Source: Bilabrum cf. latius
Lineage: Eukaryota
Reading direction: 5' to 3'
Length of the DNA stretch: 64,000 bases
NCBI GenBank assembly: GCA_965178125.1
Contig: OZ237735.1
Span: 2,046,001-2,110,000, forward strand
The position numbers and the translations under genes were made by a program. The notes beneath the pieces were generated by a model. The model was not told the DNA's origin and did no database searches. It worked only from the letters and a program-made list of their open reading frames with translations. Below, piece after piece: positions 42,001 through 64,000 of this stretch. Position 1 is the first letter of the stretch; each line of letters starts with the position of its first letter.

Positions 42001-45000
42001 CCGGGTAGCGAGATCCGACGAGGTCGTCAGAGGCAGGGGTGAAGGCAGGGTCCGTGCCATCAGCTGGGAGTGCTTGCCTGGAAGCAGACCACACCTCAGT
42101 GAAGAACAGATCCATGCCCGCGAAGCCATCAGCGGCGTTTACGTCGCGTACCACAGAGCCGTCTGCACGACGCGGCTGGATAGTGAACTCATTCGCTCGG
42201 CCGCGGACCTCCTCCGTGACCTCAACCGTGGTGTTCACGCCCACTAGGGCAGTGTTGCCACCAGACTGCAGCAGCGGGATGTCCCCGGCCCCAGCGTCCA
42301 GGAAAGTAACCCGGAAGGCAGACCCAGTCCTGCCCGCTGAAAGTGCTCCGAGATCCTCGCCAACGTGCACTCGCACGTCACCAATGACGGCCTGGTAATG
42401 GCTGGAGTTGCCATCGGCTTCAGAGGAGAAGGGCATGTACTGAAGATCGATAAGCGCATCACGCACTTCAGCAGTCGACGCATTCCAAGCAATCGCATCG
42501 GACTCGGCACCGTTTCCAATGCGCAGGGTGAACGTTCCTGCCGGTGCGTCCCCGCCCGTGGCTGCCACTACAATGGACTGCACCTCGCGCACCTCCCCGG
42601 TGAAGCCGCGAGCGAGAGCTCCTCCAACGGCCTCCGTCCTGGCTGCGGATGCTCCGGCGCGGATCACGATAGCGGGGGTCGCAATGGAAGGCGCAGATAC
42701 GGCACCGCCGCCCACGGCAGCTGACAGAGCCACGACACGGAACGCGTAGGCCGCACCAGTAGCAAGACCACTTGCAACAGCGGTGGTACGAGAGTCATCT
42801 CCAGTGCCATCGTACGCCAATACAGCCGGGGTGCCTGCGACGGTCTCGGTGACCATGCCGAACGCCTCTGTGCCGTTCAGGCGACCGGTCGATACGAGCA
42901 TCGAGGGAAGATCACCGACGGAGGCCACAAAAGTGATGGCGAAAGACACGCCCGAATAGTCGGGAGTACCGGCCAGCGGGTCATCGAGGTCAGTGGCCGA
43001 AGGAGAGGCCAGCATGGCGTCCGTGCGAGACACGCGGACCCTACCGTTGGCGCTGGGGATCGTCGTCTCGATCACGCGCGCTACCTCCGCGGGGCTTGCC
43101 GAGACTGGGATGTCACCGGTCACATACCCATCGCCGAAAGTCAGGGTGAAATCACCGGTGAGATCAAGGGAACCCCGAATCGTCTCCTCGACGGATGCAG
43201 TCACGGCCACGCCGGCAGTAGCTTCGTCCAAGAACGAGGTCTCGATGAACAGGGATGGCACATCGCCGCCAGCTCCGACTCCAGCCGAAGTGTCCATGAA
43301 CGTCACGTTGAACGCAGCGCCGTTAGCCGAAGGGGGTGCCAGCTCAACGACACTCACGGTCTGGATGGAGTCGAGCGCCTCGAGGGCAGCCTTGAACGTC
43401 ACGGGGGTCAGCCCGGCCCAATCGATGGCTGCCGTGCTTGCTTGGCCGAACCTGGCCACAAAGCTACCGCCGTTGGCACCGTCAATAGAAACAAGCTGCG
43501 ACTCAGGCTGCGCCTCGGCAGCCAGCAACGTGACCGTCTGCACCTCGACCACCGCCGCTGCCTGGTCCGAAGGCACTACACGGGCAGGCTGTGCGAACAG
43601 CTGGAAGCCAGTAACGCTGCTTCCAGATGCAGCAGCAGCGTCGAAATCAGCAGAATCTGAAAGGCTGACGGCACGGATGGCATCCACCAGAGCAGCATCC
43701 TCGGTGTCCACGCGATCCCAACGGAACTCCGCAGACGTCGAACTAATGGACAGCAGAGCCGGCATGGTGGGCGGCAGAGGGGATCCAGCGGCCCGTACTG
43801 TGGCCACTGGGCTCAGCGGGGACTGCAGCGTGGTGTTGAACGCAGGCCCGGACATGGGCCTTGTCCTGGCACGCACCGCGATGGCGTAATCCTTGCCCTC
43901 CTCCAGGCCCCGGGCCACGTGCCGCAAGGCACCATGCTGCACCACGGAAGCGGTAGCAGTGGCAGCGGCGGGCAGTAGATCATCGTCAATGACACGGAAC
44001 GGGCCGGCAAAGTTGGGGCCCCAGCCGCCGTAGCCGCGAGTCACAGCGATGGTCCACGTGACGCGGCCCTCGGTGGCATCGATCACGTCTTTGGTGGCCA
44101 CGACCTCCGCCATCGAGCCGCCGAGGGTGTACGCAGCCTGGGCCGGGTCCCTTAGCATCTCCTTCACCGCAGTGGCAACCTCCTCCGCGGTGGCGTTAGC
44201 ACCAATGGCCTCGGTCACGATCGTGATGTCGGGATCGCTGCCAAGCCGTGCCTCCAGCCTAAAATCGCTGGTGGAGTCGACGGTGCAGCTTCCGCCGCAT
44301 GTCACAGTCACGGCCTGTGTCTCGGGGTGTCCAGCACCCTCCTGCTGGGTAGAGGAGGCGTCAGGATAGTCCCTTACCTCGATCTACGGGATGTCACCGG
44401 ATGGGTGCAGCACGGTCACGGTGTACACGCCAGCGTTCACCTCCACGCTAGTAGCCACCATCGAAGACGGGTCGGAGCCAGGCACCCCGTTGGCATCCAC
44501 TAGAAGGCTCTCCACGGCCTGCCTCATTGCCACTCCGAACGGGAACGCACCGGAGAAATCAGGAAGGGCCACCGACTGCAGCCCGCCCGCAGACACGGAA
44601 GACGAGACGGCGCCACCAGCGGAAGCTCCAGCGTCATGGAAGGCAGCGCGCGGAGTCGGCCAGCTGACCTCGAGGAAATGCCCGGCCCCAGTGCCGGCTG
44701 CCGTACGCACGGCATCGAGGTCGATCACCTACCGCTCGGGCGTGCCAGCGATCACCTCCTCCACAGCAACCGAACTGTTGGCAACGGATGCACCCTGCAG
44801 AGTAGACAGAGACACGCGCACGGAGTAGTCCGTGACTGCGCTGCCACCGTTGTCAAGGGGTGCGTCCCAGCCAGCTGCCACAACGCCGTCATTTGGCACA
44901 GTAGGGGCACCGGCTGAGGTCTCCGTGTCGCGCTTGGGGGCAGCAGGTGCCGCAGGTGCCCTGGGGTCGCGCGCCACAAAGGGTGCGGAGGGGCTGGAAG

Positions 45001-48000: not shown

Positions 48001-50007
48001 CGGGCTCACGGGCGCTGTCACCGGAGACGCTCACGCCGGTGCCGACGTGCTCGGCAATCAGGGCCAGCTCGTCCTGGAGCTCGGCTGCGATCTCACCGCA
48101 AGTGGTTGCGTTGGCAAGGGTTACGTTGCCGGTGGCCACCGACATACCGGTGGTGCGAAGCCCGGAGAAGACGAATGAGAAGGCACCTGCCGGTGCTCCC
48201 GCCGAGATGTCAAGGCGGTGCACCTCAGCGTACGTGCCGCTGCTGACCTTGGCGGCCTCAATGGAGGCACCCTCAATACCCTCGCCCAGGCGGAGCTCGA
48301 CAGCGGAGCTGTTTGCGTCAATCAGCTGGAAGGGACCCTGCTTCTCGGTGAATGAGAGGGTCCAGGTGTACCCGCCCGCCGGCCGGCGGTCGGAGCGCGC
48401 GACATGCACGTGACCCACAACGTCAGATGCCTGGGCATGCAGGGCGGCCTGCATCTCCGCGGCAGTCGCGTTGAGGGAGACGTTCGCCACGCGGGCAGTC
48501 ATCCCGTCAGCGTCCGTAACGTTGAAGCTGAACATGCCGACCAGCTCGTTGCCCTGGATGGAGGACCCCGCGACGTTGCAAGGGTCCCCACCCCTGGTGC
48601 CTGTAAAGGCGGCCGGTAGCAGGGTCGAGTTGGTCGTCTCGCCGTCAGCGCAGACAACGATGGCCGCACCAGTCCCAGACAGCTGTGCGCTGCTGGCAGT
48701 GAGGGTCGGCACGTCACCGTCATGCATCTGCGTGTCGACAAACGTCACGTACCACGAGTACGCACCCTCAGCAGTGGCCGCGTCGGAGCCAGTGAAGGGG
48801 GCCCTCGACACCTCAACGTCACCAACGCCCTGCAGCGCCTGGAGGGCGGACTCCACGTCTGCCTCGCTGGCATCAAAGTCCAGCGCGGTGGTGGTCTCTC
48901 CCTCGAAGCCCAGCGTGAAAGACCCGCCCAGCTGGTTGCCGTGCTGCGTGGTGTCGATGTCCACGCTGGCACCTGCACCGGTGAGGCCACTCCTCACCAC
49001 ACGGAGCTGAGGCTGGTCCGCTGCTGGCTCGTGGAACGTCACGGACCACTCGTAGCCGCCCTGCAAGTCGGGCCCGGTCCTCGTCACAGTGACGTCATCC
49101 ACGTTGAGGAGTGCCTCAATGGAGCTCTCGAACGACGCAAGGCTACCTGCTGCTGCCGCGTCGTGGGCGATGTCGGCGGTCACGTAGCCATCGAAAGAAA
49201 GCGCAAAGCTGCCGCCGAGCGTCTCTCCAGCGAGTGCAGTGGTGGTGACAGTCTGCACCTCCGGCACCCTGCTGGCAGCAGTGTGAACGGACTGAACCTC
49301 GTCCACATCGTCTGCGCTCGTTGTCAGCGTCTGCACCTCGGTGGCACCCACGGTAGGTCGCACGTGAATGCGCTGCACCTCCTCAACGCCCTAATTGGTG
49401 TCCCATTCCACGCGATAGGAAGACACGGGGCTGCCTCCGTCGTCCGAGGGGGTCCCGACTTCCACACGGACCGCACTGCCAGAGACAGCGTTCACGCTGA
49501 CAAAGCTGGGCGAGCTAGGCGGCTCAATCGCGCCGGTCAGCCCCCCAGGGGACGTAGATGAGTTTGATCCTCCGTACAAGGCTCCTTCGCATCCGAAACT
49601 GCCACACACTACTGCGCTGGGCGATGCTGCGAAGATGCCGGGCACGGCAGCGCCACCCTCCAGGATGGACTGCCCTAGCGCACCGACAGCAAGGCCTGCG
49701 AAAAGCTTGGAATGCGATAAATCGTAACCCTTATGGATTGTGGGCAACTGAGGCGCATGCAAATGAGGGGGCAGCCGCTCAGACTAGCCAGGAATTCAAG
49801 ATCATCTTCGACGCTGACGATACAAAGAGTAGGGAGCGCAGGCAAGGTCAGCCACGCGCCATCGCCTGGAAAGCAAGCAAAATTGCACAAGTGATATATT
49901 CACTGGACGATGCCGAGGTATTACGGCTTCAAACGAACCTCTTGGGCTCAACGGTCAGCACGACTACCCTCACATGCAAAGGCTTGCACCGCTGGCGACA
50001 TCCTCAT
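2..50007 (-). CDS. Giant secreted/surface multidomain protein (FN3 + filamin + PA14 + EVQ repeats), >=16,576 aa, 3'-partial; exon 1 50007-49974, exon 2 49695 to beyond position 1; needs TAG read as sense (Gln)
   Basis: All 36 long minus-strand ORF fragments from 146..376 to 49391..49762 share one frame (stop coordinate mod 3 = 2) and each ends in TAG. Reading the gaps by hand gave 5 more in-frame TAGs (7922, 14708, 17561, 24956, 41699) and no TAA/TGA; the frame is still open at position 2. Domain motifs run across the TAGs. The spliced N-terminus MRMSPAVQAFACLAVGALG-QS looks like a signal peptide; N-x-S/T sequons are frequent. Confidence 0.92.
31470..31891 (-). other. PA14 domain 3 of the giant protein, spanning an in-frame TAG at 31556
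   Basis: GGLQGSYYNNRFFFGKPAMTRVDTTISFSW...DDVSARWTGWLKVPFSENFTFEATVNDAARLVVDG...ITLEW*EATGAAQVELKY...IIPAERLF; the domain is complete only if TAG is read through. Confidence 0.85.
35570..36145 (-). other. PA14 domain 2 of the giant protein (approximate limits)
   Basis: GGLLATYY...VDDAIDFNWG...WSARWSGSI...SDGGVRVRVNGTVVIDNW...IEVEYRHGSGAAAIALQW. Confidence 0.85.
39935..40369 (-). other. PA14 domain 1 of the giant protein (approximate limits)
   Basis: GGLTGAYYDSQWF...RLDAGIDFDFGEG...DYVSIRWTGKLLVPSTERFTF...GGGVRVWIN...VEYRHSTGPAAIKLEWSSP...VVP fits the PA14 pattern. Confidence 0.85.
49696..49973 (-). other. Predicted spliceosomal GT-AG intron (278 nt, phase 1) in the giant gene
   Basis: Minus-strand donor GCAT|GTGAGG at 49973 and acceptor TTTTCGCAG|GC at 49696. 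Splicing makes TGC (Cys), keeps frame and joins ATG 50007 to LAVGALGQS. The interval is more AT-rich than the exon and has stops in the exon-2 frame. Confidence 0.75.
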
Positions 50008-50731
50008 TATGAAAGAAGCTATCAGTGCTCTGACTGGCAAGGCACCGATTCAAGACGAGGTCTGAAGCAACTGAGTGGCCGCAACGAGTTGTTGCAGCCG
50101 TGCTCCAGGCGTAGTCGTCGGAACGGCCTCGCTGCAGTCGTCGCGCGAGCTCTCTTCCGGAGAGTGACCCTTCTGCGCACGAAAAGTAGGCGAAATAGAA
50201 TGCTAACGCAGCAAGTACGCCTATGCGGGCGAGCTAGCTCTGCACGGCAGATCCGATGCAAGCATCGGCTTGGGGTACGCCCCAGGTTGAAATCTTCAGA
50301 GCCCAGAGCGACCCACTACGGCACTTACGAAGTCGATCGATCCCGCGTTTGGGTCTAACGGATAGAAACCAAGACTAAACTAGGCCTTGGTACGATTGAT
50401 ATTCCTGTGCGCGATTCCCTTTCGGGTTTAAGCGCCAATTGCAATGCTGGAGGCCGTGCGTTGAAAGCTCGGCAACCGGTTCCGGTTTCCAGCAGGAAAG
50501 CGATGCGGTCGCAAGAAATGGTCGCAGCAGCTAGTCTACGCACCTTTCATGTTGTCGAGCACGTGCCAAGCTTCTGAGGACTAAAGTATGCTATGCAACA
50601 CACTTTGCAATTTTCTGTATGGCGCGACTGAAGGCTTGAAGTTCCGCCGAACGTAATGCCAACTTGAAAGAGCAAGCTCCGGTAGTTTTAAATAAAAGCA
50701 CAACAAATGAGCGATCCAGCGAGAGCCAAAT

Positions 50732-51668
50732 TCATCTCCTCGGCAGAAATGGATTTCGGGCTGCCAGCATCGAAGGAGAGGCGAAGCGGGCATCGTACTC
50801 GCTCAGGGCTGCGCGCTTCGACTTCGGTGGGAACCGCCGATTGACCTGAACCGGCGATCGGCTTCGCTCAGCCGGGTGCCGCGAGGACGGGCGCTTTCCA
50901 GCTGCATGCTGCCCGCCATAGCGATTAGGCACCGATGGAGGAGGAATTCCCTCGCGATCCGTGTCGAAGGGTGCCACGATCACCACATCTCGAAGGCGCT
51001 GCTGCTCCTCGAGTGAGACAGGCCTGCGGTCGTACGGCGCGGGGTCCACGCTCAGCGGAGGATCTTGGCCGTCGAGCAGGTATGAAGTGGCCGTCCTACG
51101 CCAGAGCTTCGCTTCCATGCTGCCCGGCGGGGGCGGCGCGGCTGCCTGCGGCGTGGGGGGGCGGCCGACCGCAAACGGAGGCAGCGCGCCCGCTCCGTGC
51201 CCGCGCCGAGCAACTGCTTGGCTTGGGTGAGCATCAGTGGCGCCCTCGTCCTCTCCGTGCTCGGGGCACCCGAAGTACCGCGCCCTCAGTGCCACCGCCC
51301 GCGCCTCTAGAGCCTCGAGGGCAGCCTGCTTCTGCTCCCGCTCCTGCTCTCGGCGTCTGCTTGCCACCGCCTCGACCTCTTCCGCCGAATCCGGGCGCAT
51401 TGCAGAGTCGTAGCATTGCTCCGGCTCTGTAGTAGCGGGTCCACTCTGCAGCTCGACGGCCGCGCCACCTCCCTCCACCTCCTCGAAGCTGCCATCGGCT
51501 TGCAGGGGCTGCCTGGTGGGCCGCTTGCCGTGGTCCGATCCCGCGGACCCCTGATCCGATCCCTCTCGCGAGAGAGCCACGGGGACAGAGATGTCACCAT
51601 CGTCCCCGGGTAGGGGTCCCATTGCCTCGTGCTGACGAGCGGCCTCGCTGACCCTCCCGTCGCTGCTC

Positions 51669-51712
<44 letters not shown>

Positions 51713-52954
51713 GGATTGACGCGTCTGGCCCTGTGGCGGCGCCAGCTGATGGCCTTTGCGCCCAGTGGCCCGCTTTCCACTGCGGTGTTTGTCTTCACCC
51801 CGCCCCGCCTTCGCCTCTGCAGCAGCCATGGCTGCGATTTGGTGGGCCTTCCTGAGTTCGGCTCGCTGCGTGGGCGTCATGCTAGGCCTGGGCCTTGCCC
51901 CTTGCCTTGCTTTTGCCAGGGGTCCTGAAGCAGCACCGGCCCGGGAGGCGCGAGTGCGGCGGCCGCTCGCCACGGCAGCAGCGCGCGCGGCAGCTGGCGG
52001 TCTGCGGCTTCGGCTGGCAATGCCCTTCCCACCTGACCCGGCACCCGCCGCCCGCGACTTGCGCATGGCACGCCTCGCGCGCCCAGCGGCAGAAGAGGCA
52101 AAGAGGGCGCTCGGGCGGCCCCCGCGCTGAGGACCGCTCCCGATTCCGCGCTTGCCGCTGCCGCCGCCGCTCCCCCTTGCTGTGCTCTCTGGCCCCTCAC
52201 CCACTTGGCCGCCTGCCTCGGCATCGGCGCCAACGTGCTCGCTGATTTCGCTGCTTTCCGGCACATCATCACGGCTGGATGGACGGGCATGAATAGGGGA
52301 GCCTTTAATTCTACTAGCCGCCCCATCGGATCGATACCTCTCGTCGTACTCTGTGACAGCACCCTCACCGCTGGGCTCGTGCCACAGCGCGATAGGCCCG
52401 GCAGCAAAATCGCCGACAGGCCGTTCTTGCTGACTGCGCAATCTATGCTGCGTACCAACCTTGCCCTTAGCATGCAGAAGTGCTTGCTCCCTCGCCTCAA
52501 GAGCGCTGTCTTCCCTAGCTCTCCGCTCGGCAGCCCGCTTTACCAGGCTCTCCCGCTGGCGGCCCTTGAAGCTGCCCTCTGCCTCCGTCTACCATGGATT
52601 TTTCGCTGTATATGGGTCTTCATTGCTCTTATCTGCATTATCTTTGGAATTGGCCCGCGAAGAAGGCGCCATAGGGCGACTTCGAGCGTACTTTAGCCTA
52701 GTCTCCGAGTAGTAGTGCTTGGGGTTGTGCAGCTCGCTCTCCTCGGCTATCAGGCCTCCAATGGTGCTTCCATGACCCTTTTCACGAAATCCTTTGGCTC
52801 TTTTCATCGTATCAACGCTTGATTGGATCCATGGATCGTCCATCTTCGGCTTTGGCTTTGTATTTTTAAACGGGTTCGGGTAAAACTCAGATTTTACTGC
52901 AGATATCATCACGCTACTCCGGAATTGAGCCGTTCGGCAACCGATGGATTGCAT
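50732..52954 (-). CDS. Hypothetical low-complexity (Ser/Ala/Arg/Gly-rich) protein, ~740 aa with one internal TAG (52589); start uncertain (alternative ATG 52843)
   Basis: ORFs 52589..52954 and 50732..52441 are in frame, separated only by one TAG plus sense codons; ends TGA at 50732-50734. No domain recognised. Confidence 0.6.
51672..51710. repeat. (CTG)13 trinucleotide microsatellite encoding a poly-Ser tract on the minus strand
   Basis: Perfect ctg repeats; read as AGC (Ser) codons in the 50732 ORF. Confidence 0.9.
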
Positions 52955-53086
52955 CGCCTAGCAATGGATTCTTGTTCGTTTCCCGACTTTTCAGCCGGCC
53001 GATAGTATGCTGGCAGTGCTTCGCTCTCGTCTTATGTTGCTAGCAAACTCGGTGCGATCGAAAGGCAGCGCTAGCAGCTAGACGGC

Positions 53087-55765
53087 ATGTCAGGAATCGC
53101 CTCGTCTGCTGAAGGCGCGTTAAATCCTGATGCGCTTGGTGTTCGAGCAGTTGATAGAGAATTTACATTTCGCACGACGCTGCCTCGCCACTTCATTGGG
53201 GCATCAACACGCGCAGCAGAGCCTCGTGCTGGCTCCAAAGAATCGCTGCCAGGCAGCGACGAGGCCAAAGTGGCTTAGATCCGACCCCCGGCTGATTTTC
53301 GCGGAATCTCAATCAATGGAGAAGCCGAGCTGGCGCAATTTGACAAGATGCTGTCCGCGTCCAGCTCCGAGACGGTTCGTTTGTCGTCATCGCTTGTGTC
53401 TCCTCGGGTCCTTCGCTCCATCGCCGCAAACGCAAGCTCGGACGGCATCCTGTCGCTGGACTTGTCCAATGCGACCATTTCAGTTGCTGCTGCAAATCCT
53501 GGCTCGGCGCTGTCTACAGCGGAAGCAGAGCTTGCCGCAGCAGTAGGGGGTCTCTCCCGGTTGCGACGTCTCAACCTGGATCGCGTGAGAGTTGCGATCC
53601 GCCGTGGCGACCTCGACAGCGAAGACGCCAGCCCTTAGGATGCCGCACGCTTGCCTTCTCACTCAGCAGGGCCAGCAGCTACACCCCCCCTACGTCTGCT
53701 AGAAGCGCTTGGCAGGCCACTTGGCAGCCTGGCGTCGATCAGCATGCGGGGCCAGAGGAGCATGGCGAGCGATGCGGCGTGGGCGCAGGTGCTCAGATCC
53801 GCGGCCGTGCGAGCAGGCGCTTCGGTTGAGGCGAGCAGTGGTGCCAAGCGAGCGGGCGGGTGGAGCCCCATGGCCAGAGGATCAGGCAGAAGCGGCGCTG
53901 CTGGCGGCAGTAGTATGGAGGGTGACGGGCAAGGGGCTGGGGAGGGCTAGGGGCAGCACTCCTCACCAGAAGAGGCTGCGTCCATCGGTGCGGACGAAGA
54001 GGTGACTCGGCTGGCTCGGCTTGCACGGCTTGTGCTAGTATCGCCAGACGCAGCCGATGGAGGGGCGCCAGACCGCAGGGGAGACGTCAGTGGTGGTGAG
54101 GCTAGGGCTGGGGCTGGGGATGGCCCCTTGGCAGCAGCGGATGGTGCTCCTAGGCTGCGAGAGGGGGCGGAAACGGTGCGATGGGTGGAGCTAGATCTGA
54201 GTGACGTCAGCGGGTCGCGATACCGCGACCCGGAGCAGGTCGCCGCGGCGGCCCAGGAGGCCGTCGGAACGTTCGCTGGTGCGATAGATAAGGCCCGGAA
54301 GCTAGACACGAGGCGTCGGAACGCAGCTGACAGGCAGCGCGCCCGCGCCCTGGCGGCAGCGGGCAAGAAGGAGTCCGACTCGAACGGCAAGGGGGGCAAG
54401 AAGGGGGCCAAGGCAGCGGCAGCCAAAGCCAAGGAGGGTGCAAAGGGCAAGAAGAAGGGAGCCAAGAAGAAGGCATCGGAAATACAGCCACCACCCGAGC
54501 CACCCATGGCACCGGAACCGCTGTCGGATGAGGTTGCTGCCTCAGCGGCCGCGGCTGCCGCTGCCGGGGTCCTGGGTTCGAACCCCGCTACGACGTCCGC
54601 GCATCGTTTCCGCACGGACGGACTCACCGATTTAGGGCTCCGAATGATCGGCCTGCTGTGCCCCTTCCTGCAGCGGTTGAGCCTGAAGATGTGCGAGCCA
54701 CCCGTTGTCCCGCTCGTCACACCTGTTTTCGGCGCCACGGATACTAGCAGCGCGGGCGCATCCGGAGACGGCGGTTCGGCATCGGAGTCCAATGTGGGTA
54801 CAATCGGCGGCAAGTGTGACGAGTGGTCTTCGTCGGCCCTGGATCTACCGGACGAAGAAGACCTCGTGGTTGGTGCTCGAACGGCTTCCCTGCGCGCCAT
54901 CGAGGCAGCAAGAGCCAGGGCGGGCAAGAGTGGCAAGAAGGGGAAAGGGGGCGCCAAGGGCAAGTCCGGAGGGTCAGGAGCTGGTGGGGGGAAGAAGGGC
55001 AAGAAGAAGGGGGAAGGGCCAGCCACAGCGGCGCCGCAATCCAGACGACTCGGCCCTGGCTTTGCGGAACTTCTGGCGAGGGCTGAAGGCGCCGCGCGAC
55101 GAGTTCCGCTACGAGCCCCGCTCAGCGGCCGGGGGTTGGGCATGCTGCTCGAGGGGCCGTGCTCCTCGACGCTGCAGGAGCTGGATCTTGGGGGGTGCTT
55201 CTGGGTGGGCAAAGAGGCGCTTTCGGCTGTCGGTAGCAGGTGCAGCGCATTGCAACGGCTGCGTCTGGCCGGTTGCGCGGGTGTGGACGACGGGGCGCTC
55301 CTGGCTCTCTGCGGGAACCTTCACGCGGGCCTGTCGCAGAGCCTCCTGGAGCTCGACCTGACTAGGACGAGGTGCAGTGCCAGCGGGGTGCGGGCGGTGG
55401 TTGGTAGGCTGCACGGGCTCCAGCGGATCGTCCTGATTGGTTGCGACCGGGTTGACCCCGCCGAGACCATCGCTCTTGCCAGGGGCCTGCCACCCAGTGT
55501 GCAGGTGGTGTGGAGGCCCGCGGGAGCAGCAGCAGTGGCGGGTCCTCGCGCGCTGGCGGGCGATGCTGTGGGTGCCCTCGAGGATATTGCTTCACATAAT
55601 GGGGGTGCGGACGGTGGAAGGGCGGGGTCTGCGACGTTTGCCACGGTGAGGGCTCAGTACGTGGAGGGGTTCAAGGCACCGGCCGCCGGCGAGCGGTTCG
55701 AGGACACGCTGGCCGAGCATCTTAGGACGCAGGGCAAAGCTGCCAAGAAGAAGAAAAAGAAATGA
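53087..55765 (+). CDS. Leucine-rich-repeat protein (RNI-like/FBXL-type LRRs), 892 aa with three internal TAGs (53276, 53636, 53948)
   Basis: ORFs 53087, 53348, 53651 and 54002 are one frame joined by TAGs and end in TGA. LRR motifs ILSLDLSNA, LRRLNLDRV, LQRLSLKMC, LQELDLGGCFWV, LQRLRLAGCAGVDD, LLELDLTRTRCS, LQRIVLIGCDRV; Lys/Gly-rich insertions; C-terminal KKKKKK. Confidence 0.8.
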
Positions 55766-55845
55766 AAGCGCGAGGCGGATGTGGCCCGTTGGAGCCTCGG
55801 CGGTTCACTGGGGCTCCGCCTTGCAACATGAACGCACGTATCGTT

Positions 55846-56262
55846 TCAACTCATCAGACCCATCCAACACAACTGCGCATTCTGGCATATCCTATCAAAC
55901 GACTCCCCTTTCAAAAAGTCATCCACCATTTCATCCCGCTGAGAAGCCATGACACCGCATCCCTCATGAAAGACAGGCGGTGCAACAGCACAGAAGTCAT
56001 CGAAAGCCGATGACACCTCGGCTGCAGTTGGCTGAACTGCTGATGCTGCAGCAGAAACCTATCTCCAAACTAATTCACACGCGTAACAGCCTTCCTTGTC
56101 CGCTGCAGAGCCTCCAACCAACCCCGATTGCAACGCTGCTTTCCGTGCTGTTGACGACAACTTTGCGGCCTCTGCACCATCTACGAAACGTTCTTCCTCT
56201 GTTCCAAGCACTACAGTCATAATTAAAACGGATACGCTCAGAAATAACGATATCATTTGCAT
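55846..56262 (-). CDS. Secreted saposin-B-type (SAPLIP) protein, 138 aa, one internal TAG (56059)
   Basis: Signal-peptide-like MQMISLFLSVSVLIMTVVLG. Reading through TAG gives CYACELVWR*VS...FDDFCAVAPPVFHEGCGVM...MVDDFLKGESFDRICQNAQLCW, the six-Cys saposin spacing; ends TGA at 55846-55848. Confidence 0.8.
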
Positions 56263-56927
56263 GCTAAGGCGTTGCAAGTCGGTGGAGCCAGTTCTGCTGG
56301 TTTACATGTCTTCATCTTCCTAAATTGCACACCCCTCCTGCCCCATCCATGGATCCGCTGGTATCGCTGCAATAACTGTCAAACTAGGCGCAAATGTGCG
56401 ACCCAGTGGCCAAACGAATTGAGATTCGGAGTAGCCTGTACCTCATTAGTCTACTGAAGGGCATTTGAGCAATGATACTGGCTGCTAGCCGACGGCCACG
56501 CGCACATGCCGCGCAGAGCTGGACTGCTGGCCCAGAGCTGGGCAGCTTCAGAGCCAGGGACAGGCCAATGGTTAAAGTCAAAAACCAAGTCTCTGCGGCC
56601 CCCTATCTTCACTAGGGCTCCTAGATGCTGCTGAGCTCTGCCAACGTTTCTGGTAGACCTCACCAAGAGGGTGGCAACCCAAAATCGGCCGGGCACTTTT
56701 GGGGGTTATAACCACGCGCTACAAGCAAAAATCTGGTTTGTTGCCGATACGATTGCACTTCCTGCCTGTCCAGCCCACATAGAGTGTGTGCGCGACTACT
56801 GCGCGCAAGAATCATGCATTCAGTACTTCGAAGCTCCCGTCGTGTTGCCAATAGTGCCATCTCTTTCCGAGGTCTGGCCCGAAGACCGGCGTGGTCCGCC
56901 GGCGCAAGAGCAAGTGCCACAAGGCAG

Positions 56928-58688
56928 ATGTCTATATTTGACGCGTTTCTCGGAAGATCAAATGCGGGTGAAAGCCTGGAGCTGACGGCCAATGAGCTCG
57001 CCAACAGCGTTTAGAAATTGCACCATAAGGTGCTGGCTCCACTGAATGACCGATGCCTCGGACCGCTTGAGAAAAGCAGCCACGAGATGCTCACACGGCC
57101 CATGGTGTTCGTGCTAGGCAACCATAGCAGCGGGAAGTCGACATTCATCAACTACGTAACCGGGCGAAAGGTTTAGGCCACCGGGGTAGCCCCCACAGAC
57201 GATGGTTTCACCATTATTGCGCCTGGGCAGGAGGATGCCGATCAGGATGGCCCCGCGCTCGTAGGCGACCCTGACCTTGGATTCGGAGGGCTGAGGGTGT
57301 TTGGCAGAGAACTTATCAACCATGTGAACCTGAAAGTCCGCACTGGCCTGCACCTCAGGGACATCATGGTGGTGGACAGCCCCGGCATGATCGATAGCCC
57401 AATGTCCGTCCAGGGCCTGTCCTAGCACGGGGCAGGTGGCCACGGCGGGACGGGAGGCGGCACGAGCAGCTCCGGTCATTACGACTACGGAATGGACCCC
57501 GCAGGGTCGAGCCTGGGAGGGGCGGCGGCCGAAGAGCGCTACTCTGGGATCCGGACCAACGCCAGCCCGCGGGACCGGGGCTACAATTTCCCGGGCGTGG
57601 TTCGGTGGTTCGCCGAGCGAGCCGACGTGGTGCTCCTGTTTTTCGACCCTGATAAGCCCGGTACGACTGGCGAGACGCTGGCATGCATGCGGGCCGGTCT
57701 CGCTGGGATGGAGCACAAGGTGGCCTTCGTGCTCAACAAGGCGGACCAGTTCGAGAAGGTCCACGACTTCGCGAGGGCGTACGGGTCCCTGTGCTGGAAC
57801 CTGTCCAAGGTGATTCCCAGAAAGGATCTGCCGCTCATCTACACCATGTGTGTGCCCGTGGACTCGAGGGGGGAGGCGAGGATCGGCAAGCTGGCGGACG
57901 AGGACGAGGAGTCAAAGGGCGGGGTGTACGTACCCGGCGAGGGCGGCGCGGACGACGAGTCGAGGGGCCTGCGGGGCCTGCGCAACGCGATGGACGACCT
58001 GGCCGCCAACCGCAAGGACATCATCCAGAGCGTCAGGAAGGCGCCCATGCGGCGAGTGGACAACCTCATCACCCGGCTCTACGACAACACGAGGATGCTC
58101 AGGATGCACGCCCAGATGGTGGAGGCCTTGCGATCGGACGTTCGGTCCAGGCTGTTGCAGTGGGCCTCGGGGGGCGCAGCCGTGGCTGGTTTGTTGGGTG
58201 TACTTTCTGGTTTTTAGCTTTTCGTGGGCTCCTGGGAGACGGGGGCTCCCATGGGCTTGGCTGCGGCCGTGGCCGTGGGTGCCACCTACTGGACATCGCA
58301 GCGGGCCCTTGAGCAGCATCGGAGGTACCTGGTGGAGGGCGGCGCCGCGGGGCTGGAGGCTATGTTCCGCAAGCAGCACTTCATGCAGCTGGCTGAGCGC
58401 GACGATTTCGTGGTGAGTCTGTGGGAGAGGGTGCGGCCGCAGCTTCTCGCGACAATCCGCACGTTCGGCTTGCTTGGGCTGCCCTCCGTGAGTGCGTCGG
58501 AGCTGCACGAGCTGGACAGGATCGCGGGCGAGGAGGTGACCCGGCTGAGGCGAGCTGCCAGCAAGGCAGCAGCCATGGCCGTCAAGGCGGAAGAGGAAAG
58601 CGTTGCTAGGGAGAGCGAGGAAGCCCGGGGGGGCGATCCCCTTGGCGTGGGCAGCGGCACAGCCGACAGCGATGAGCGAAGAAGATGA
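56928..58688 (+). CDS. EHD/sarcalumenin-related dynamin-superfamily P-loop NTPase with predicted C-terminal membrane hairpin, 586 aa, four internal TAGs (57012, 57174, 57423, 58215)
   Basis: G1 GNHSSGKS, G2 region V*ATGVAPTDDGF, G3 DSPGMID, RGYNFPGVVRWFAERADVVLLFFDPDK, G4 LNKAD, RAYGSLCWNLSKVI; two hydrophobic segments near 58150-58290; ends TGA. Confidence 0.88.
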
Positions 58689-58732
58689 CACGCGCGCGCT
58701 GTACACGTTTGCATAGAACAATATTCGGGTTG

Positions 58733-59425
58733 TCATTTCGATTCTTTGCTTCCGAGGCCGAGGGCCGCATCGACGAATCCTGGGGTGACCACTGCTGGTG
58801 ACTTGCCGCCTGTCGCTGCCTTTACCTTGGCATACACGTCCGGCTCCATGCTGGTGATAGAGCTCTAATATCGCTCGACCTGAATGAGCTTAAACTCTTT
58901 CTCCTCGAGTTTGCGACCGAGCCCTGCCTTGCGAGCAAGCGACTGGACCGCCTGAGCCTTCGTCCAGCCCTGCTCGGGCATCACCTGCGGCAAGTATGTC
59001 GCAGAGAGCGATCGCCTAAGGCCGAATTTGCTTGCTGGTAGCACAATCGTGATGCCGTGAGTGCCCACATCCCAGTCGTCCCACGCTTCCGCAGTTTCGA
59101 ACGCAACGAGAATGGACACCTTGATGCGGCAGGCTTTGAGCTCGCTCGGGGACATGGGATCGAAGCGTCTGTCTTCTAAAGCAGACTTTTTTACATAGTC
59201 GCCCAGGTGCTCAGTAGACGAGGTTCCCAATGTTCCGATACAGCCTCGCAGCTGCCAAGCACCCTTTTGAAGCTTCTCGATTGTAACAAATAGACCTCGC
59301 ACCGGCGCGATAAGCTCATCAGCTAGCTTTGAAGATGATGATCCAGTCAGAATTGATTCTAAATACGCCATGCAATAGAATGCAAGGTCAGCATTGGCAA
59401 GGAGGGGCGGCGCAACCGATGCCAT
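58733..59425 (-). CDS. AMMECR1: AMMECR1-family protein, 230 aa, one internal TAG (58865)
   Basis: Family motifs GLFVT, LRGCIGT, SALEDRRFDP, DDWDVGTHGITI, ATYLPQVMPEQGW, SLARKAG, then ERY*SS; the frame continues to TGA at 58733-58735. Confidence 0.9.
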
Positions 59426-60166
59426 TGGCGTCAATCCGGACAATGGTCACCCCGCAGCTCGCGTACCAAATACAGCTAGTCAGATGAGCAAATCTTTGCG
59501 CTTCACAACCTCTGCACGCCTCGCAACGATTGCGGCCGATGAAGCATGGCGATTGTTCCGCAATAATTCGCTGGCGGCAACCGCGCGGCGCCTCCATGTG
59601 CGTTCACCAGAAATCGTGCTCGCACCAGGCAACCCCGTCAGCCACTAGAAGGCTCTTACTATTCAGCGGTCTGGTGTAAGGTTGCATCTCTATTTTTGTG
59701 ACTCTTTTGCGGACTCGTTGCTGTACGTTGACCTCTTCGTGCAGTCTAGCACGGTCAACGCTGGCTTCGAGCATGCTTTCTGAAGAATGGGGAGAGCTGC
59801 TGGATATTGTGAACATTGAGGAGAGTCCACAGAGCAAGCAAAAAGCAACACTGCCAACCGGATCGATTGCTCAAGCATGGCGGCACACAAGTGAGGCACA
59901 GTCCGTTGCATCACGCAAAGATGTATAGTGATGGCACTGCGTATTTCCTCCACGCATGGCTTTAGGTTGCTCAGAAACTCCAATTATGGCTTGATGATCG
60001 CATAGAAGTATTGCATTTATATTTAATTGCACCTTTTACTGATCGTTTTTCTGCCGATTCTAGTCCGAAATCGGAGGGGAGCGCGTGTGTGGCGTGCCAA
60101 GCATGGTTGTGCTGGAGGTACTGAAACTAGTTTTTCGTTCTGCAAAAGCTTGAACTATACATTCCA

Positions 60167-63100
60167 ATGATTTCATTTGTTCTCATCGGGTCGCTCGCAG
60201 AATCAGATGCTCAGAGGCCACTCCAGACTGCAAGTGCCCCGGCAGCTGCAGAGAGCTCAGCACCTGACGATCCAACAAGCAGTCTAGCTCTGAGAACTCG
60301 TGGAATTGATCAGCAAACAGATGATCATGGCCATGCCAAGGAAATTATGCGTCCAGACTCTGCTGAACAGCGTGGTTCAATTGAAGCTGGCAAGCGATTC
60401 GATTCGAGCGAGCTGTCACATGTGCCAGAACCACCATAGAAGCTGTTCCAAGGAAAGAAACAACCTAAGGAACGAGATCACGACTACAGCACAGAAATTA
60501 ATACTCTGGGAAGCACCCAGGACGGCGGTGCATTCTCTGATGAGGGAGATGACGCAAAGGACCCATCGGCGTCGTCTGGTCGCCTTTGGGCAGATTTCGG
60601 CTTCGAAAAGGACCGGCGAGCAGGGATACCTGAGCTACGAATCTCAGCAGTGCAGCAAAATCTCGCTGTGTCGAAGCGAATCGGTGAGCTTTCCCCGCGG
60701 GGGTCCGCGCTCGAGCAGGCAGAGCTGCGACCAGCCGCGGCCTACTTCGAAGGGAAACAAGACAACAGCGGAGCTGACCGGGATGAAACTCAAGCTGAAG
60801 AACGTTCGGCAGAACTGGATCCGCTTTTGGATTCAAGTGCTCAAGGTTTGAAGCAACTTGAAGCGCGCGACGAACAGCACAAGTCGCCCGAGCAGCCGCA
60901 GCCGCAGCTGCAGCTGCAGCCAGCACGACGCCACAGAAGGCGCCGCGAGAGTAGCCGCCTCAAAGCCTCCAAGGAGCAAGCAGCACAGCTTGATGAGGAG
61001 CTTGACGGCAAAAGGCAGAACGATTCAGCTGCCTCAGGCAGGCAAGAGCATGCCGCGCCGACCTGGGACGCTCTAGTCTCGAATACGATGGCGGATCATG
61101 GATATGCTGGCAACGCCGATGCCCGGGCCATATCTGCCGGACCGGGGCATGAATATGACCTGTCAGAGATGCATGACCATCAGAGCGAAGCTGCAGGCAG
61201 CGGCGGTCGCTTCGAAGAAGTAGATGACATCGAGGCAATGGCAGCAATGCAGCAACAGTCGCGCGCATTGGGGGCGGCTCGGCGAAGCGGAATCATGGTG
61301 TCGCCCAGCCACATCCATTCGTACGGAGTGCCGAAGGAGCTGCAACATCAATCAATGCTTCAGCCCGGCACACCTGCAAGTGCAATCAGCAGCCTGGTGC
61401 TCCCCTTGCAGGCGCTGTCCATTCGCGGGCACCAGCCACCACTGGACGCAAGTGCGTTCGGCAAAAATAGCGAAGCCGTTGCGTCGATACCGGCCTACAA
61501 CCCGCAGTTAAGCCGAGGTTTGACTGCAGGATATCAGTCGACCGGTCTCGGCACCATGAATGGGGCATCAGCAGCGGCGGTCTCATTCATGCAGACATAG
61601 ACGGTCGAGTCGTCGCCGGTGACGACTGTGGACGGGGTGTACCCAGGCGTCTTCCCGTCAGGGAGCAGCGGCTCTAACAGCGACTAGATTCCAGTGCAGC
61701 GCGCTCCTCCGAAGGGGTTAGGTCTGGTGCCTCCGCTCTACTAGGAGCGGCCGCGCAGCAGCGCAGCCCTTGCAAACGTGGGCAGTGGACCGATCGCTAG
61801 TCTTGCAGCTCTTGCAGGCACCGGCCGTGCAACGAGCAGCGGTGCTCTGTTCGCTGCACAAGGAATCTTGTTAAGTACCAGCGCAGCTGCTCAGCCCTAC
61901 AACCTTCTGGACTAGCCTCACAGCCGGGCGTCGCACTCGCAGACCGCGTCGGAACCCCCGGTGTTCAGCAACTACAGGATCCGCAGCGCAACTTCTACGA
62001 GCCAGGCCCCGGCGGTGGCTCACCCGAACATCGCTGCGCTCCTCTCCAGCACAGCTCCGCCGACATCCAGCGCTGTGCCTCGCTCCTCCAGAGCACGGCA
62101 GGTTGCTTCGCCTAGCGATGCCAAGCGCAGCGTCCGCAAGCTGCCAAAGTACACCAGGGAATGCTTCGTGAGGCCGAAGATCAACGCGCATCCGGACGTG
62201 CCTGCGGATTATCTGAGCGATGATCGCCTGCTGAAGGGGTCTGGAAGGCTACATCCGCAACAAATATGCACCCTCAAGCACTGGATGGCGGACAGAGATC
62301 ACTGGGAGAAGCCGTACCCGACAGAGGCCGAGAAGCACGAGCTCAGTCGGAAATGCGATCTGAAGCTCACGCAGGTGTCCGACTGGTTCCGCAACGAACG
62401 CAAGCGGTTGTGGCTACCGCTGATGCGCCAGCTTGGCAAGATTCCCGCCAACGGCTCCCACCTCGCGATCATGGGGTCGGCGCGGAGGAGCAAGGGGTCT
62501 TCATCCTCTGGCTCCAGGTCTGGAGCTTCGAGGAAGCAGTCACGCAGCAGCGCGGCAGCCAGGCAAAAAGCGCTAGGAGCTGCTGCGTCCGAGTTTCCCA
62601 CTGCGTCAATGCATAGCCAGGGCCCAAGTATGGACATGGGGCAGAGCCAGGCACTCGCGGCCGCGCCCCAGTCCAGGGTCGGCAGGACCAGGACGAGGTC
62701 TGACGCAGCCTGTAAGCCCAAATTGGCCTTCACTCCAAGTAGTATCACCACGCGTACGGAGGCACTGGCCACGAAGTAGCGCAAGGCCAGGCCCAGGGCA
62801 GCAAGCACAGCTGCGCTGCATGCTAGCAGCACACGGCAAGTGGGAGCCGGTGGGTTCGGCATCGCAGGCACACTGCAGCCGCAGCCGACGCTACATTGCC
62901 CGGCGGCCAGTGACCCGATCATCAGTGGATCGAGCGTCCGCGCAGCGCAAGAGGCGCTGCTGATGGAGACTCCCGGCGGAAAACTTGCGGCAGGTCTGCA
63001 GCCGGGCGGCCTCTCGACTCCAACTCCCGGCGTCGCCGGGGGCACGACATCCGCCGGTGCACAGTCTTCCTCGTCGTCGTCGTCTTCCTCGTCTTCCACC

Positions 63101-63661
63101 ACGCCGCTGGCATCGTTCTCAAACGTTGCTGTACTCGCTGCCATGTACCCTGAGGGGCCTGCAGCGCGCTCGATGGCGGCAGCTCAGGCATCATCGAGCG
63201 GTGGCCCGGGTGCTTGGGCCGGAGGCATGCACCAATCGGCTGCCCGAAGCAGCAGCTCGACAGTGTCTGAGCCTAGGTCCAACCCGCAGCAAGACTCTGG
63301 TTCCTCGACGCCAGTTGGACGAGCTAGTACCAGCGATGACATCGGCCACGGTGGCACCTCGTCCCAGGCGGTGGGCTCTTCTGCAGGGCCTACCAGCCCC
63401 GCGGGAGACCACGACAAGAAAGGCGAATCAATCGGAACAGCAGTGGCGATGGCTCTCTCCAGCAAGCATTCTGCTGCATCGTCAAGGCGGTCATCAAGAG
63501 GATCTAAGCGGCCGAGGCCTCAAGAATTGTCCCAGGGTTCACAAGCAGGTGGTGACAAGGCTGGCACTGAGCCAAGGCGAACCAGCGTTCTGGCAGTGGA
63601 CCCGCGAGCAGGAAAGCGTTCACGAACTACATCTCTTGCTGCAACAGAGGCGGGCAACTGA
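60167..63661 (+). CDS. TALE-class homeodomain transcription factor, ~1,164 aa, six internal TAGs (60437, 61598, 61685, 61742, 61913, 62777); 5' end uncertain (possible upstream exon/intron)
   Basis: ORFs 60167, 60650, 61961 and 62840 are one frame interrupted only by TAG and end in TGA. Homeodomain at ~62234-62419: LKHWMADRDHWEKPYPTEAEKHELSRKCDLKLTQVSDWFRNERKRLW, with the TALE PYP motif. The rest is low-complexity. Confidence 0.82.
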
Positions 63662-64000
63662 GAACTAATTTGAATACTCTGCGTGTAGTAATTGATCGTG
63701 TCGCTCTTCGAGTATGAAAACAGGCAAAATGTACGAAGCAGCACACAACTGGACTGCCCAACGGAAGCATCTGATAGTCCGACGAAACTAATCGTTTCTA
63801 CACGACAGACAAGTTATCCATGCACCCAGCCATTCGAGAAGTTGCAGTTGGCACGCCACAGCGGAACCACTGCCAGTGGCCTGGTGACTGTGTCCGCGGC
63901 GCCTTTCCAGGAGTTGCCCGTTCCAACATCAGCATCATTGCTAAGCTTGCCGCACCAGGATGGCCTCCATCGAATCAGTTATCATAAAGCCAGTGCAAGA

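What the first reader, a model, noticed from the sequence alone, without database searches (positions are those of the whole stretch)
50732..63661. UAG and UAA appear uncoupled: all six complete genes end in TGA and TAA is never used in frame
Seen: terminal codons at 50732, 55763, 55846, 58686, 58733 and 63659 are all TGA. Across roughly 20,000 codons there are 57 TAG and no TAA, although CAA (Gln) is used. Established: most eukaryotic reassignments change UAA and UAG together (table 6). Inference: this is the rarer split code (UAG sense; UAA stop or nearly unused), which needs a CUA-specific tRNA and an eRF1 that discriminates UAG. TAA is never seen as a terminator here, so its meaning is undetermined from this window.
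Basis: partly seen in the sequence, partly recalled or inferred. Interest (0 to 1): 0.85.

Follow-up and report, generated by a model that had tools for sequence, protein, structure and literature searches.

The report
Stramenopile reading UAG as glutamine
This GC-rich stretch of a stramenopile protist's nuclear genome uses the stop codon UAG as an ordinary glutamine codon and keeps UAA out of its genes, a rare split of two stop codons that normally change meaning together.

Summary
With gene models refined by spliced RNA contigs, the seven genes of the window hold 20,445 codons: 59 in-frame TAG, no TAA, and TGA only as the last codon of the six complete genes.

- **TAG is glutamine.** It sits at a position that is Q in 120 of 120 homologues and at one that is Q in 81 of 120. 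Against a related metagenome contig (L001, same gene order), 9 of 12 TAG columns in the three best-conserved genes pair with CAG, CAA or TAG.
- **The TAGs are in the RNA.** RNA-like contigs match the DNA without a single difference, so editing and sequencing error are excluded.
- **TAA is not a freely used glutamine codon.** From CAA:CAG usage, about 11 TAA would be expected in the window and about 20 in L001. None is seen (combined P about 4e-11), although TAA is common just outside the coding regions.
- **The all-TGA gene ends carry little weight.** All 11 ends seen are TGA, but that is not significant at this base composition.
- **Whether UAA terminates is still unobserved.** No whole genome, tRNA gene or eRF1 could be reached.

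This is a table-15-like code in a lineage beside Cafeteria. My paper searches found no stramenopile case. I rate it a new member of a known kind.

The parts
2..49695 (-). Main exon of a giant secreted-protein gene (FN3, filamin and PA14 domains). It runs off the left edge of the window. 41 in-frame TAG, 0 TAA, 0 TGA in 16,576 codons (the count includes the short exon-2 part).
   Evidence: ORF and counts. TAG coordinates. Pfam. A 50,596-nt RNA-like contig (X5 record 9) matches 44001-49694 with 0 other letters.
49974..50007 (-). Start of the giant gene's coding sequence in exon 2 (ATG at 50007). Together with the start of exon 3 it encodes a hydrophobic N-terminus that looks like a signal peptide.
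   Evidence: Spliced-mRNA translation. Exon 2 = 49974-50172 and 5'UTR exon 1 = 50329-50432 from the contig joints. The signal peptide is read by eye; no predictor was run.
49696..49973 (-). Intron 2 of the giant gene (GT..AG on the minus strand). Intron 1 is 50173-50328.
   Evidence: Joints in X5 and X7 contigs; the introns are present in DNA run X1. Boundary letters.
50732..52954 (-). Gene for a low-complexity protein of 740 aa, no Pfam family. 1 in-frame TAG (52591). Ends in TGA.
   Evidence: RNA-like contigs cover 50664-51655 and 51719-52849.
52964..55765 (+). Gene of 933 aa with a Leu/Cys-rich C-terminus that looks like leucine-rich repeats (my reading; 0 Pfam families). 5 in-frame TAG. 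Ends in TGA.
   Evidence: RNA-like contig 52971-54933. Orthologue in L001 2..2332.
55846..56262 (-). Small secreted, cysteine-rich protein of 138 aa that looks saposin-like (my reading). 1 in-frame TAG (56061), which is also TAG in the L001 orthologue. Ends in TGA.
   Evidence: RNA-like contigs 55858-56272 (X6) and 55837-56271 (X7).
56814..58688 (+). EHD/RME1-like dynamin-family GTPase, 624 aa. 4 in-frame TAG (57012, 57174, 57423, 58215). Ends in TGA.
   Evidence: Pfam Dynamin_N. EHD2/EHD4 structures. 1,855 homologues at E<=1e-10. RNA-like contigs with 0 other letters.
57174..57176 (+). The diagnostic TAG codon (EHD residue 121), at a position that is invariably glutamine.
   Evidence: Q in 120 of 120 aligned homologues. 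CAA in the L001 orthologue.
58733..59443 (-). AMMECR1-family gene, 236 aa. 1 in-frame TAG (58867-58865) in the conserved RYQSS motif. Ends in TGA, 44 nt from the EHD stop.
   Evidence: Pfam AMMECR1 2.6e-35. Q in 81 of 120 homologues at the TAG column. CAA in L001. A 91%-identical database protein ends exactly before this codon.
59773..63661 (+). TALE-class homeobox gene: exon 1 coding part 59773-59890, intron 59891-60200, exon 2 60201-63661. 1,193 codons, 6 in-frame TAG. Ends in TGA.
   Evidence: Pfam Homeobox_KN 5.2e-13. GT..AG joint in X5 and X6 contigs. Spliced ORF. TAG coordinates.

Best explanation
The window is nuclear DNA of a GC-rich (62%), intron-poor stramenopile protist. One gene tree places it beside the bicosoecid Cafeteria. 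Its cytoplasmic translation reads UAG as glutamine. UGA ends every gene seen. UAA is kept out of reading frames, so it is not a glutamine codon. UAG and UAA are therefore uncoupled, as in NCBI table 15.

Shown here:
- UAG is sense and stands for Gln.
- It is present unchanged in the RNA.
- It is shared by at least one related organism (L001).
- UAA is under selection against in-frame use.

Inferred from the published logic for such codes (PMC5304391, section 9):
- A tRNA-Gln with anticodon CUA, one mutation away from tRNA-Gln(CUG), reads UAG but cannot pair with UAA.
- eRF1 has lost or weakened UAG recognition.
- UAA most likely remains a stop that is little used in this GC-rich genome (about 0.65 within this reading).
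For: (1) TAG at EHD residue 121 aligns with Q in 120 of 120 homologues. TAG in AMMECR1 aligns with Q in 81 of 120. One giant-gene TAG falls in a recurring motif where Q fills that place in 20 of 31 copies.

(2) Orthologue comparison with L001. In the three best-conserved genes, 12 columns hold a TAG: 7 pair with CAG or CAA, 2 are TAG in both, 3 pair with something else. Over all five genes there are 40 such columns: 9 face a gap, and of the other 31, 9 pair with CAG/CAA, 2 with TAG and 20 with other codons, mostly in the 39%-identical homeobox gene.

(3) Contigs of runs X5, X6 and X7 skip three GT..AG introns that DNA run X1 keeps. They match the window with 0 other letters across the TAG-bearing genes.

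(4) 0 TAA among 59 TAR codons in the window (expected 10.8, P = 7.7e-5) and 0 among 25 in L001 (expected 20.1, P = 4.8e-7). Combined P = 3.7e-11.

(5) TAA is frequent in the other frames (54 and 61 per frame). It is also the first in-frame upstream stop for 3 of 7 window genes and 3 of 4 L001 genes.

(6) TAG ends none of the 11 genes.
Against: - UAA was never seen as a terminator: 0 of 6 in the window and 0 of 5 in L001. The 'UAA = stop' half of table 15 is therefore unobserved.
- No tRNA gene and no eRF1 could be examined, because no genome is held.
- The L001 gene models have no RNA support. The five L001 genes are orthologues of window genes, so the two samples are not fully independent.
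- Three of the four EHD TAGs, and most homeobox TAGs, lie in variable columns that say nothing about the amino acid.
- The RNA nature of X5-X7 is inferred from splicing. The run records do not state it, and the tool's own guess for X5 was 'probably DNA'.
- The expected TAA counts assume that TAA:TAG would follow CAA:CAG.
Confidence: 0.85

Rival explanations
1. Ordinary table 6: both UAA and UAG encode glutamine, UGA is the only stop, and TAA is simply avoided because the genome is GC-rich.
For: All 11 terminators seen are TGA, as expected if UGA is the sole stop. Third positions are GC-biased (GC3 0.61-0.77 in the window genes).
Against: CAA is used 99 times in the window and 46 times in L001. 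With those ratios about 11 and 20 TAA are expected, and 0 of 84 TAR codons are TAA (combined P 3.7e-11). In the L001 homeobox gene CAA:CAG is 27:29, with 16 TAG and 0 TAA. TAA is common just outside the coding regions.
Confidence: 0.04
2. UAG is glutamine and UGA is the sole terminator. UAA is unassigned: neither read by a tRNA nor efficiently recognised by eRF1. This would be an intermediate between the standard code and table 6.
For: UAA is absent both in frame (0 of 84 TAR codons) and at gene ends (0 of 11). The stop position has shifted by one or two codons in three of five orthologue pairs, and the AMMECR1 tails differ by indels. The new end is TGA each time.
Against: 0 of 11 TAA terminators is not significant. 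With neutral TAA shares of 0.135 (window) and 0.27 (L001), the probability is about 0.09 (my arithmetic). In every published UAG-only nuclear code that I read about, UAA is kept as a stop (PMC5304391 abstract and section 9; PMC11687900 abstract and Discussion). From memory, I know of no nuclear code with an unassigned UAA.
Confidence: 0.2
3. The in-frame TAGs are not translated as ordinary sense codons. They would instead be pseudogene lesions, sequencing errors, sites edited in the RNA, or context-dependent readthrough of a codon that is still a stop.
For: None specific. UAG suppression is inferred from sequence alone; no peptide data exist here.
Against: - 84 TAGs lie in 12 gene copies, with no other stop in 23,468 codons.
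- RNA-like contigs carry the TAGs unchanged (0 other letters).
- TAGs are spread along the whole 49.7-kb frame.
- Two TAGs are conserved as TAG between species and 9 exchange with CAG/CAA.
- No gene ends in TAG (0 of 11).
Confidence: 0.02
4. UAG is sense but encodes an amino acid other than glutamine (for example Leu, Glu, Tyr or Ser, as in other UAG reassignments).
For: Most TAGs lie in variable columns where homologues show S, A, E, D or G.
Against: The two TAGs that fall in conserved columns are Q in 120 of 120 and 81 of 120 homologues. TAG exchanges with CAG/CAA in 9 of 31 aligned orthologue columns, and with no other single amino acid more than twice.
Confidence: 0.02

Closest known systems
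Iotanema spirale (Metamonada, Fornicata): UAG = Gln, with UAA and UGA kept as stops (Panek et al. 2017, PMC5304391; abstract and section 9 read)
   Same: UAG alone is reassigned to glutamine and UAA is not a sense codon. The same predicted mechanism applies: a tRNA-Gln(CUA) derived from tRNA-Gln(CUG), and an eRF1 with weakened UAG recognition.
   Different: A different supergroup (here a stramenopile). In Iotanema UAA is the primary terminator, whereas here 11 of 11 ends are TGA and UAA was never seen as a terminator. The genome here is GC-rich (62%). The eRF1 T32G change described for Iotanema could not be looked for.
Ciliates Hartmannula sinica, Trochilia petrani and Protocruzia tuzeti: UAG = Gln only (McGowan et al. 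2024, PMC11687900; abstract and Discussion read)
   Same: UAG-only reassignment to glutamine with widespread in-frame use; a table-15-like code.
   Different: In those ciliates 86.9-98.3% of genes end in UAA and UGA is the rarest stop (paper's Discussion). Here the pattern is the reverse. The lineages are unrelated, so this is an independent origin.
Table 6 lineages (many ciliates, hexamitin diplomonads, ulvophyte algae, oxymonads, Amoeboaphelidium): UAA and UAG = Gln, UGA the only stop (as listed in the PMC11687900 Discussion)
   Same: UAG is glutamine, and UGA is the only terminator observed.
   Different: In-frame UAA, which defines table 6, is absent here (0 of 84 TAR codons, P about 4e-11).
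Rhizarian exLh and TARA phyllopharyngean ciliates (UAG = Leu); Scotinosphaera (UAG = Ser) (PMC5304391; PMC11687900 Discussion)
   Same: UAG is uncoupled from UAA in a nuclear code.
   Different: A different amino acid. Here the conserved sites are Gln.
Giant-virus contigs reading TAG as Gln with TAA/TGA as stops
   Same: The same code variant. Those notes postulate an unknown eukaryotic host that reads UAG as glutamine.
   Different: No link was found. Scans of viral contigs with the EHD-like and AMMECR1 proteins returned no relative. The connection is speculation only.

Membership tests
UAG-only stop-to-glutamine nuclear code (NCBI table 15 type; Iotanema, Hartmannula, Trochilia, Protocruzia) | In-frame UAG in conserved genes at positions that are glutamine in homologues | tested here: met
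   Q in 120 of 120 homologues (EHD) and 81 of 120 (AMMECR1). TAG pairs with CAG/CAA in 9 of 31 aligned orthologue columns, and with CAG, CAA or TAG in 9 of 12 columns in the three best-conserved genes.
UAG-only stop-to-glutamine nuclear code (NCBI table 15 type) | UAG no longer used as a terminator | tested here: met
   0 of 11 gene ends are TAG: 6 in the window and 5 in L001. The sample is small.
UAG-only stop-to-glutamine nuclear code (NCBI table 15 type) | UAA is not a sense codon (absent from reading frames) | tested here: met
   0 TAA in 20,445 + 3,023 codons, against 59 + 25 TAG. Expected 10.8 + 20.1 if used as CAA is relative to CAG. P = 3.7e-11.
UAG-only stop-to-glutamine nuclear code (NCBI table 15 type) | UAA functions as a terminator | tested here: inconclusive
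   0 of 11 ends are TAA. This is not significant against the neutral TAA share of 0.135-0.27 (P about 0.09 by my arithmetic).
UAG-only stop-to-glutamine nuclear code (NCBI table 15 type) | tRNA-Gln(CUA) present and tRNA-Gln(UUA) absent | not testable with these tools
   No genome is held. There are no tRNA genes in the window or L001 and no Rfam match.
UAG-only stop-to-glutamine nuclear code (NCBI table 15 type) | eRF1 N-domain altered at UAG-discriminating positions (GTS, NIKS, YxCxxxF) | not testable with these tools
   eRF1 is not encoded in the window or L001, and no other sequence of the organism could be reached.
Table 6 (UAR = Gln) | Both UAA and UAG occur in frame at Gln positions | tested here: not met
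   TAG yes, TAA never.
Table 6 (UAR = Gln) | UGA is the only terminator | tested here: inconclusive
   11 of 11 ends are TGA. This is compatible with table 6 but is also expected by base composition.
Ambiguous stop/sense codes (Condylostoma, Blastocrithidia type) | The same codon is both sense inside genes and a terminator at gene ends | tested here: not met
   TAG ends 0 of 11 genes. TGA occurs 0 times inside 23,468 codons.
Stramenopiles (taxonomic placement) | Conserved proteins group with stramenopile sequences | tested here: met
   Every one of the best 120 EHD hits whose printed source name shows an organism is a stramenopile; most hits are unnamed. In the tree of 36 rows, window + L001 (100/100), then one environmental sequence, sit next to Cafeteria plus another environmental sequence (99/97). 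This rests on one gene and a midpoint root. The AMMECR1 hits are taxonomically mixed and do not help.

The most novel reading that the evidence does not exclude
In this stramenopile lineage UGA is the only working terminator and UAA is an unassigned codon, read neither by a tRNA nor efficiently by eRF1. That would be a living intermediate on the road from the standard code to table 6, reached in a GC-rich genome through tRNA-Gln(CUA) first. A weaker add-on is that such protists are the missing hosts of the giant viruses that read TAG as glutamine.
Probability: 0.2. Interest if true: 0.85.

Novelty: new member of a known kind. Interest (0 to 1): 0.66.

Why it matters
UAA and UAG almost always change meaning together. 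Only a handful of nuclear lineages are known to split them, and in the ones I read about UAA is the dominant stop.

This case would add:
- an independent origin in a supergroup (stramenopiles) for which seven full-text searches found no nuclear code change;
- a GC-rich genome where UGA, not UAA, ends the genes seen.

That makes it a natural test of whether UAG capture by a CUA-anticodon tRNA depends on UAA being the main stop, and of how eRF1 can drop UAG alone.

There is also a practical consequence. Standard-code gene callers truncate this lineage's proteins. A 91%-identical AMMECR1 in the public protein set ends exactly before the TAG position, and the 16,576-codon gene would be cut into 42 pieces.

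RNA-like and DNA runs with identical sequence exist in at least three studies, so the decisive genome-wide checks are within reach.

Tried and rejected
- **Whole genome:** none is held for this window. Genome-wide terminator counts, a tRNA scan and eRF1 analysis were therefore impossible.
- **tRNA and RNA families:** ARAGORN found 0 genes in the window and in L001. Rfam at gathering threshold gave 0 matches in 74,953 bases.
- **Earlier notes of this scan:** none for this genome by place or by sequence.
- **Metagenome scan with the last 500 aa of the giant ORF,** meant to reach its terminator beyond the window edge: 30 pattern matches, none a relative.
- **Viral-contig scans:** no pattern match with the EHD-like protein; 2 pattern matches, no relative, with AMMECR1. 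No link to TAG=Gln giant viruses was found.
- **Genome-contig scan with the EHD-like protein:** 239 pattern matches, no relative.
- **Sequencing runs:** no listed holder is on record as RNA. X5-X7 were treated as RNA-like only because their contigs are spliced.
- **Five long 'joints'** (skips of 2,274 to 11,919 bases, sides of 20-24 letters) fall on simple trinucleotide repeats and were set aside as repeat artefacts.
- **ORFs 49970..50701(-) and 62922..63938(-)** were rejected as genes. The first overlaps the giant gene's 5' exons and introns, and the second is antisense to the homeobox gene. They were left out of all counts.
- **PDB sequence search** gave no help for the TAG columns: EHD2 has P and K there, and the AMMECR1 alignment stops before the TAG.
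- **Stop-codon context** (12 nt before and 40 nt after each of the 11 ends) showed nothing shared.
- **Not used:** structure prediction, complex prediction, the protein atlas, the representative-protein search and RNA model building. They do not bear on codon meaning.
- **Paper supplements** were closed. The eRF1 alignment and codon tables of PMC5304391 (Additional files) and the stop-usage figures of PMC11687900 were not seen.

Full report
**What the window is.** The window is 62% GC throughout. It carries eukaryotic genes:
- a TALE homeobox gene, an AMMECR1 gene and an EHD/RME1-like dynamin-family GTPase (PDB matches to EHD2/EHD4);
- a small secreted, cysteine-rich protein that looks saposin-like to me;
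- two low-complexity proteins;
- one enormous gene on the minus strand with fibronectin-III, filamin and PA14 domains.

No whole genome is held for it. Every one of the best 120 hits of the EHD-like protein whose printed source name shows an organism is a stramenopile (Cafeteria, oomycetes, thraustochytrids, diatoms, brown algae, Nannochloropsis); most hits are unnamed. A maximum-likelihood tree of 36 rows puts the window protein with a metagenome orthologue (L001, 100/100). Next comes one environmental sequence, and this group sits beside Cafeteria plus another environmental sequence (99/97). That is one gene with a midpoint root, so I use it only as 'stramenopile, probably near bicosoecids'. 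The AMMECR1 hits are taxonomically mixed and add nothing.

**Gene models.** One sequencing-run search found DNA runs holding all sampled words (X1-X4) and three further runs holding 28-83% of them (X5-X7). I laid X1, X5, X6 and X7 on 44001-64000.
- The listed contig pieces over the genes match the window with 0 other letters.
- The X5-X7 contigs skip three GT..AG segments that the X1 contigs keep: 50173-50328 and 49696-49973 on the minus strand, and 59891-60200 on the plus strand.
- Their contigs also begin and end near gene borders.

I therefore treat X5-X7 as RNA-derived. Their records do not say so, and the tool's own guess for X5 was 'probably DNA'.

The introns correct two starts:
- The giant gene starts at ATG 50007 in exon 2 and encodes a hydrophobic N-terminus that I read as a signal peptide. 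The TTG at 49762 lies in an intron.
- The homeobox gene starts at ATG 59773 in exon 1. The ATG at 60167 lies in an intron.

One X5 contig of 50,596 nt covers the giant gene and runs 598 nt past the left edge of the window.

**The observation.** With these models the seven genes hold 20,445 codons: 59 TAG, 0 TAA and 6 TGA, the TGAs being the last codons of the six complete genes. The giant frame alone has 41 TAG, 0 TAA and 0 TGA in 16,576 codons. Over the whole window, the two other frames of the same strand have 96 and 113 TAG, 54 and 61 TAA, and 413 and 565 TGA. So TAG is only mildly depleted in frame, while TAA and TGA are absent.

**TAG means glutamine.**
- In an alignment with the 120 best homologues, the TAG at EHD residue 121 (57174-57176) falls in a column that is Q in 120 of 120. 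The other three EHD TAGs fall in variable columns whose commonest residues are S (53), S (30) and A (55), and say nothing.
- The AMMECR1 TAG falls in the RYQSS motif, where 81 of 120 homologues have Q. The rest are G 9, E 7, gap 7, R 5, K 4, V 3, I 2, S 1 and D 1.
- One giant-gene TAG sits in a recurring motif where Q fills the place in 20 of 31 copies.

**A second organism with the same code.** A metagenome scan with the EHD-like protein returned one contig, L001 (10,953 bases, 84% identity in the best segment). It has the same five genes in the same order and orientation.

Its ORFs under TAG=Q hold 3,023 codons: 25 TAG, 0 TAA and 5 terminal TGA.

Codon-by-codon comparison of the five orthologue pairs gives 40 columns with a TAG on either side:
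- 9 face a gap.
- Of the other 31, 9 pair TAG with CAG or CAA, 2 are TAG on both sides, and 20 pair with other codons. Most of those 20 lie in the 39%-identical homeobox gene and in the N-terminal half of the 933-aa gene.
- In the three best-conserved genes (EHD 79%, saposin-like 64%, AMMECR1 57% identity), 9 of 12 columns are Gln codon or TAG.

One search used the older homeobox start at 60167. This does not touch the TAG columns downstream of the intron.

A third relative shows up in the protein database. It is an AMMECR1 that is 91% identical and ends exactly at the residue before the window's TAG. That is what a standard-code gene caller would produce. Its DNA could not be read.

If TAA and TAG were synonyms, their ratio should follow CAA:CAG, because both arise from the same C-to-T change and feel the same third-position bias.

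| Sample | Expected TAA | Observed TAA | P(no TAA) |
|---|---|---|---|
| Window | 10.8 | 0 | 7.7e-5 (1.8e-5 using Gln+Glu+Lys codon pairs; 6.1e-5 pooled) |
| L001 | 20.1 | 0 | 4.8e-7 |
| Combined | | | 3.7e-11 |

All figures are and use each gene's own CAA share. L001 is the stronger test because it is less GC-rich: its homeobox gene has CAA:CAG of 27:29, with 16 TAG and no TAA.

The result is not circular:
- Although ORFs were listed with TAA as a stop, none ends at a TAA.
- The orthologue pairs end within one or two codons of each other or have similar tails.
- The 5' ends in the window are fixed by RNA contig starts and, for two genes, by hydrophobic N-termini.
- TAA is plentiful just outside the coding regions. 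It is the first in-frame upstream stop for 3 of 7 window genes and 3 of 4 L001 genes.

So in-frame TAA is selected against, and table 6 with GC-driven avoidance is very unlikely.

**Does TAA terminate?** This stays open. All 11 gene ends are TGA. Five of them are orthologous pairs, but the stop position has shifted by one or two codons in three pairs, and the AMMECR1 tails differ by indels. The ends are therefore partly independent.

Against the neutral share of TAA among TAA+TGA trinucleotides (0.135 in the window, 0.270 in L001), the chance of seeing no TAA end is about 0.42 for the window alone and about 0.09 for both (my arithmetic). That is not significant.

In the published UAG-only codes that I read about, UAA is the main stop. 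[quoted passage not shown] Here UGA dominates, which may simply reflect GC content.

I rate the possibilities as follows:
- UAA is a rarely used stop: about 0.65.
- UAA is unassigned, or not a working terminator: about 0.2.
- UAA is a very rare sense codon: about 0.05.

**Mechanism.** Shown: UAG is decoded as Gln, is present in the RNA, and is never a terminator in this sample; UAA is excluded from frames. Inferred from the published argument (PMC5304391, section 9):
- Only a CUA anticodon reads UAG without reading UAA.
- tRNA-Gln(CUA) is one mutation from tRNA-Gln(CUG).
- Glutaminyl-tRNA synthetase must accept the changed anticodon.
- eRF1 must lose UAG recognition.

None of these parts lies in the window or L001.

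**Comparison and novelty.** The code fits NCBI table 15 and the cases of Iotanema, Protocruzia, Hartmannula and Trochilia. It differs in lineage, in GC content and in using UGA for every end seen.

Seven full-text searches found no report of a nuclear stop-codon reassignment in a stramenopile. The Discussion of the 2024 ciliate paper, which lists the known UAG-only cases, names none. Subscription-only papers and very recent work are outside the library. Runs from three or more studies hold this sequence, so a description may be in preparation.

I file it as a new member of a known kind.

Earlier notes of this scan describe giant viruses that read TAG as glutamine and have an unknown host. Two viral scans with window proteins found no link.

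Noticed in passing
window 2-50432 (-): A single gene of at least 16,576 codons with FN3, filamin and PA14 domains and a hydrophobic N-terminus that looks like a signal peptide. It has two small introns only at its 5' end and is covered by one 50,596-nt spliced contig in run X5. This is an exceptionally large predicted extracellular protein for a protist, and its end lies beyond the window.
   Followed up: partly
window 58688-58733: The convergent EHD-like and AMMECR1 genes have stop codons only 44 nt apart. AMMECR1 contigs of two runs from different studies end at 58725/58726, 7-8 nt past the TGA. This is a weak hint of very short or overlapping 3' UTRs.
   Followed up: no
window 51656-51718, 60891-60925, 63064-63096: Simple trinucleotide coding repeats (CTG/CAG and GTC/TCC type). 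They break the DNA assembly of run X1, give depth spikes of about 900-1,170 in the RNA-like runs, and create false long 'joints'.
   Followed up: yes
protein P0123: A database AMMECR1 that is 91% identical to the window's and sits on contigs up to 95 kb ends exactly before the window's TAG position. It probably comes from a third organism of this lineage and was truncated by standard-code gene calling.
   Followed up: partly
window 56061 (-) and L001 2528-2944 (-): The small secreted, saposin-like protein keeps a TAG at the same aligned codon in both organisms. This is one of two TAG sites conserved as TAG; the other is EHD residue 468.
   Followed up: partly
window 49970-50701 (-) and 62922-63938 (-): Long ORFs that appear under TAG=Q (243 and 338 aa, with 4 and 6 TAG) are not genes. 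One overlaps the giant gene's 5' exons and introns, and the other is antisense to the homeobox gene. High GC makes such spurious ORFs common here.
   Followed up: yes
L001 5031-5349: The gap between the EHD and AMMECR1 stop codons is 319 nt in L001 against 44 nt in the window. Intergenic DNA in L001 is clearly more AT-rich (GC 0.52-0.56 in its middle part).
   Followed up: no
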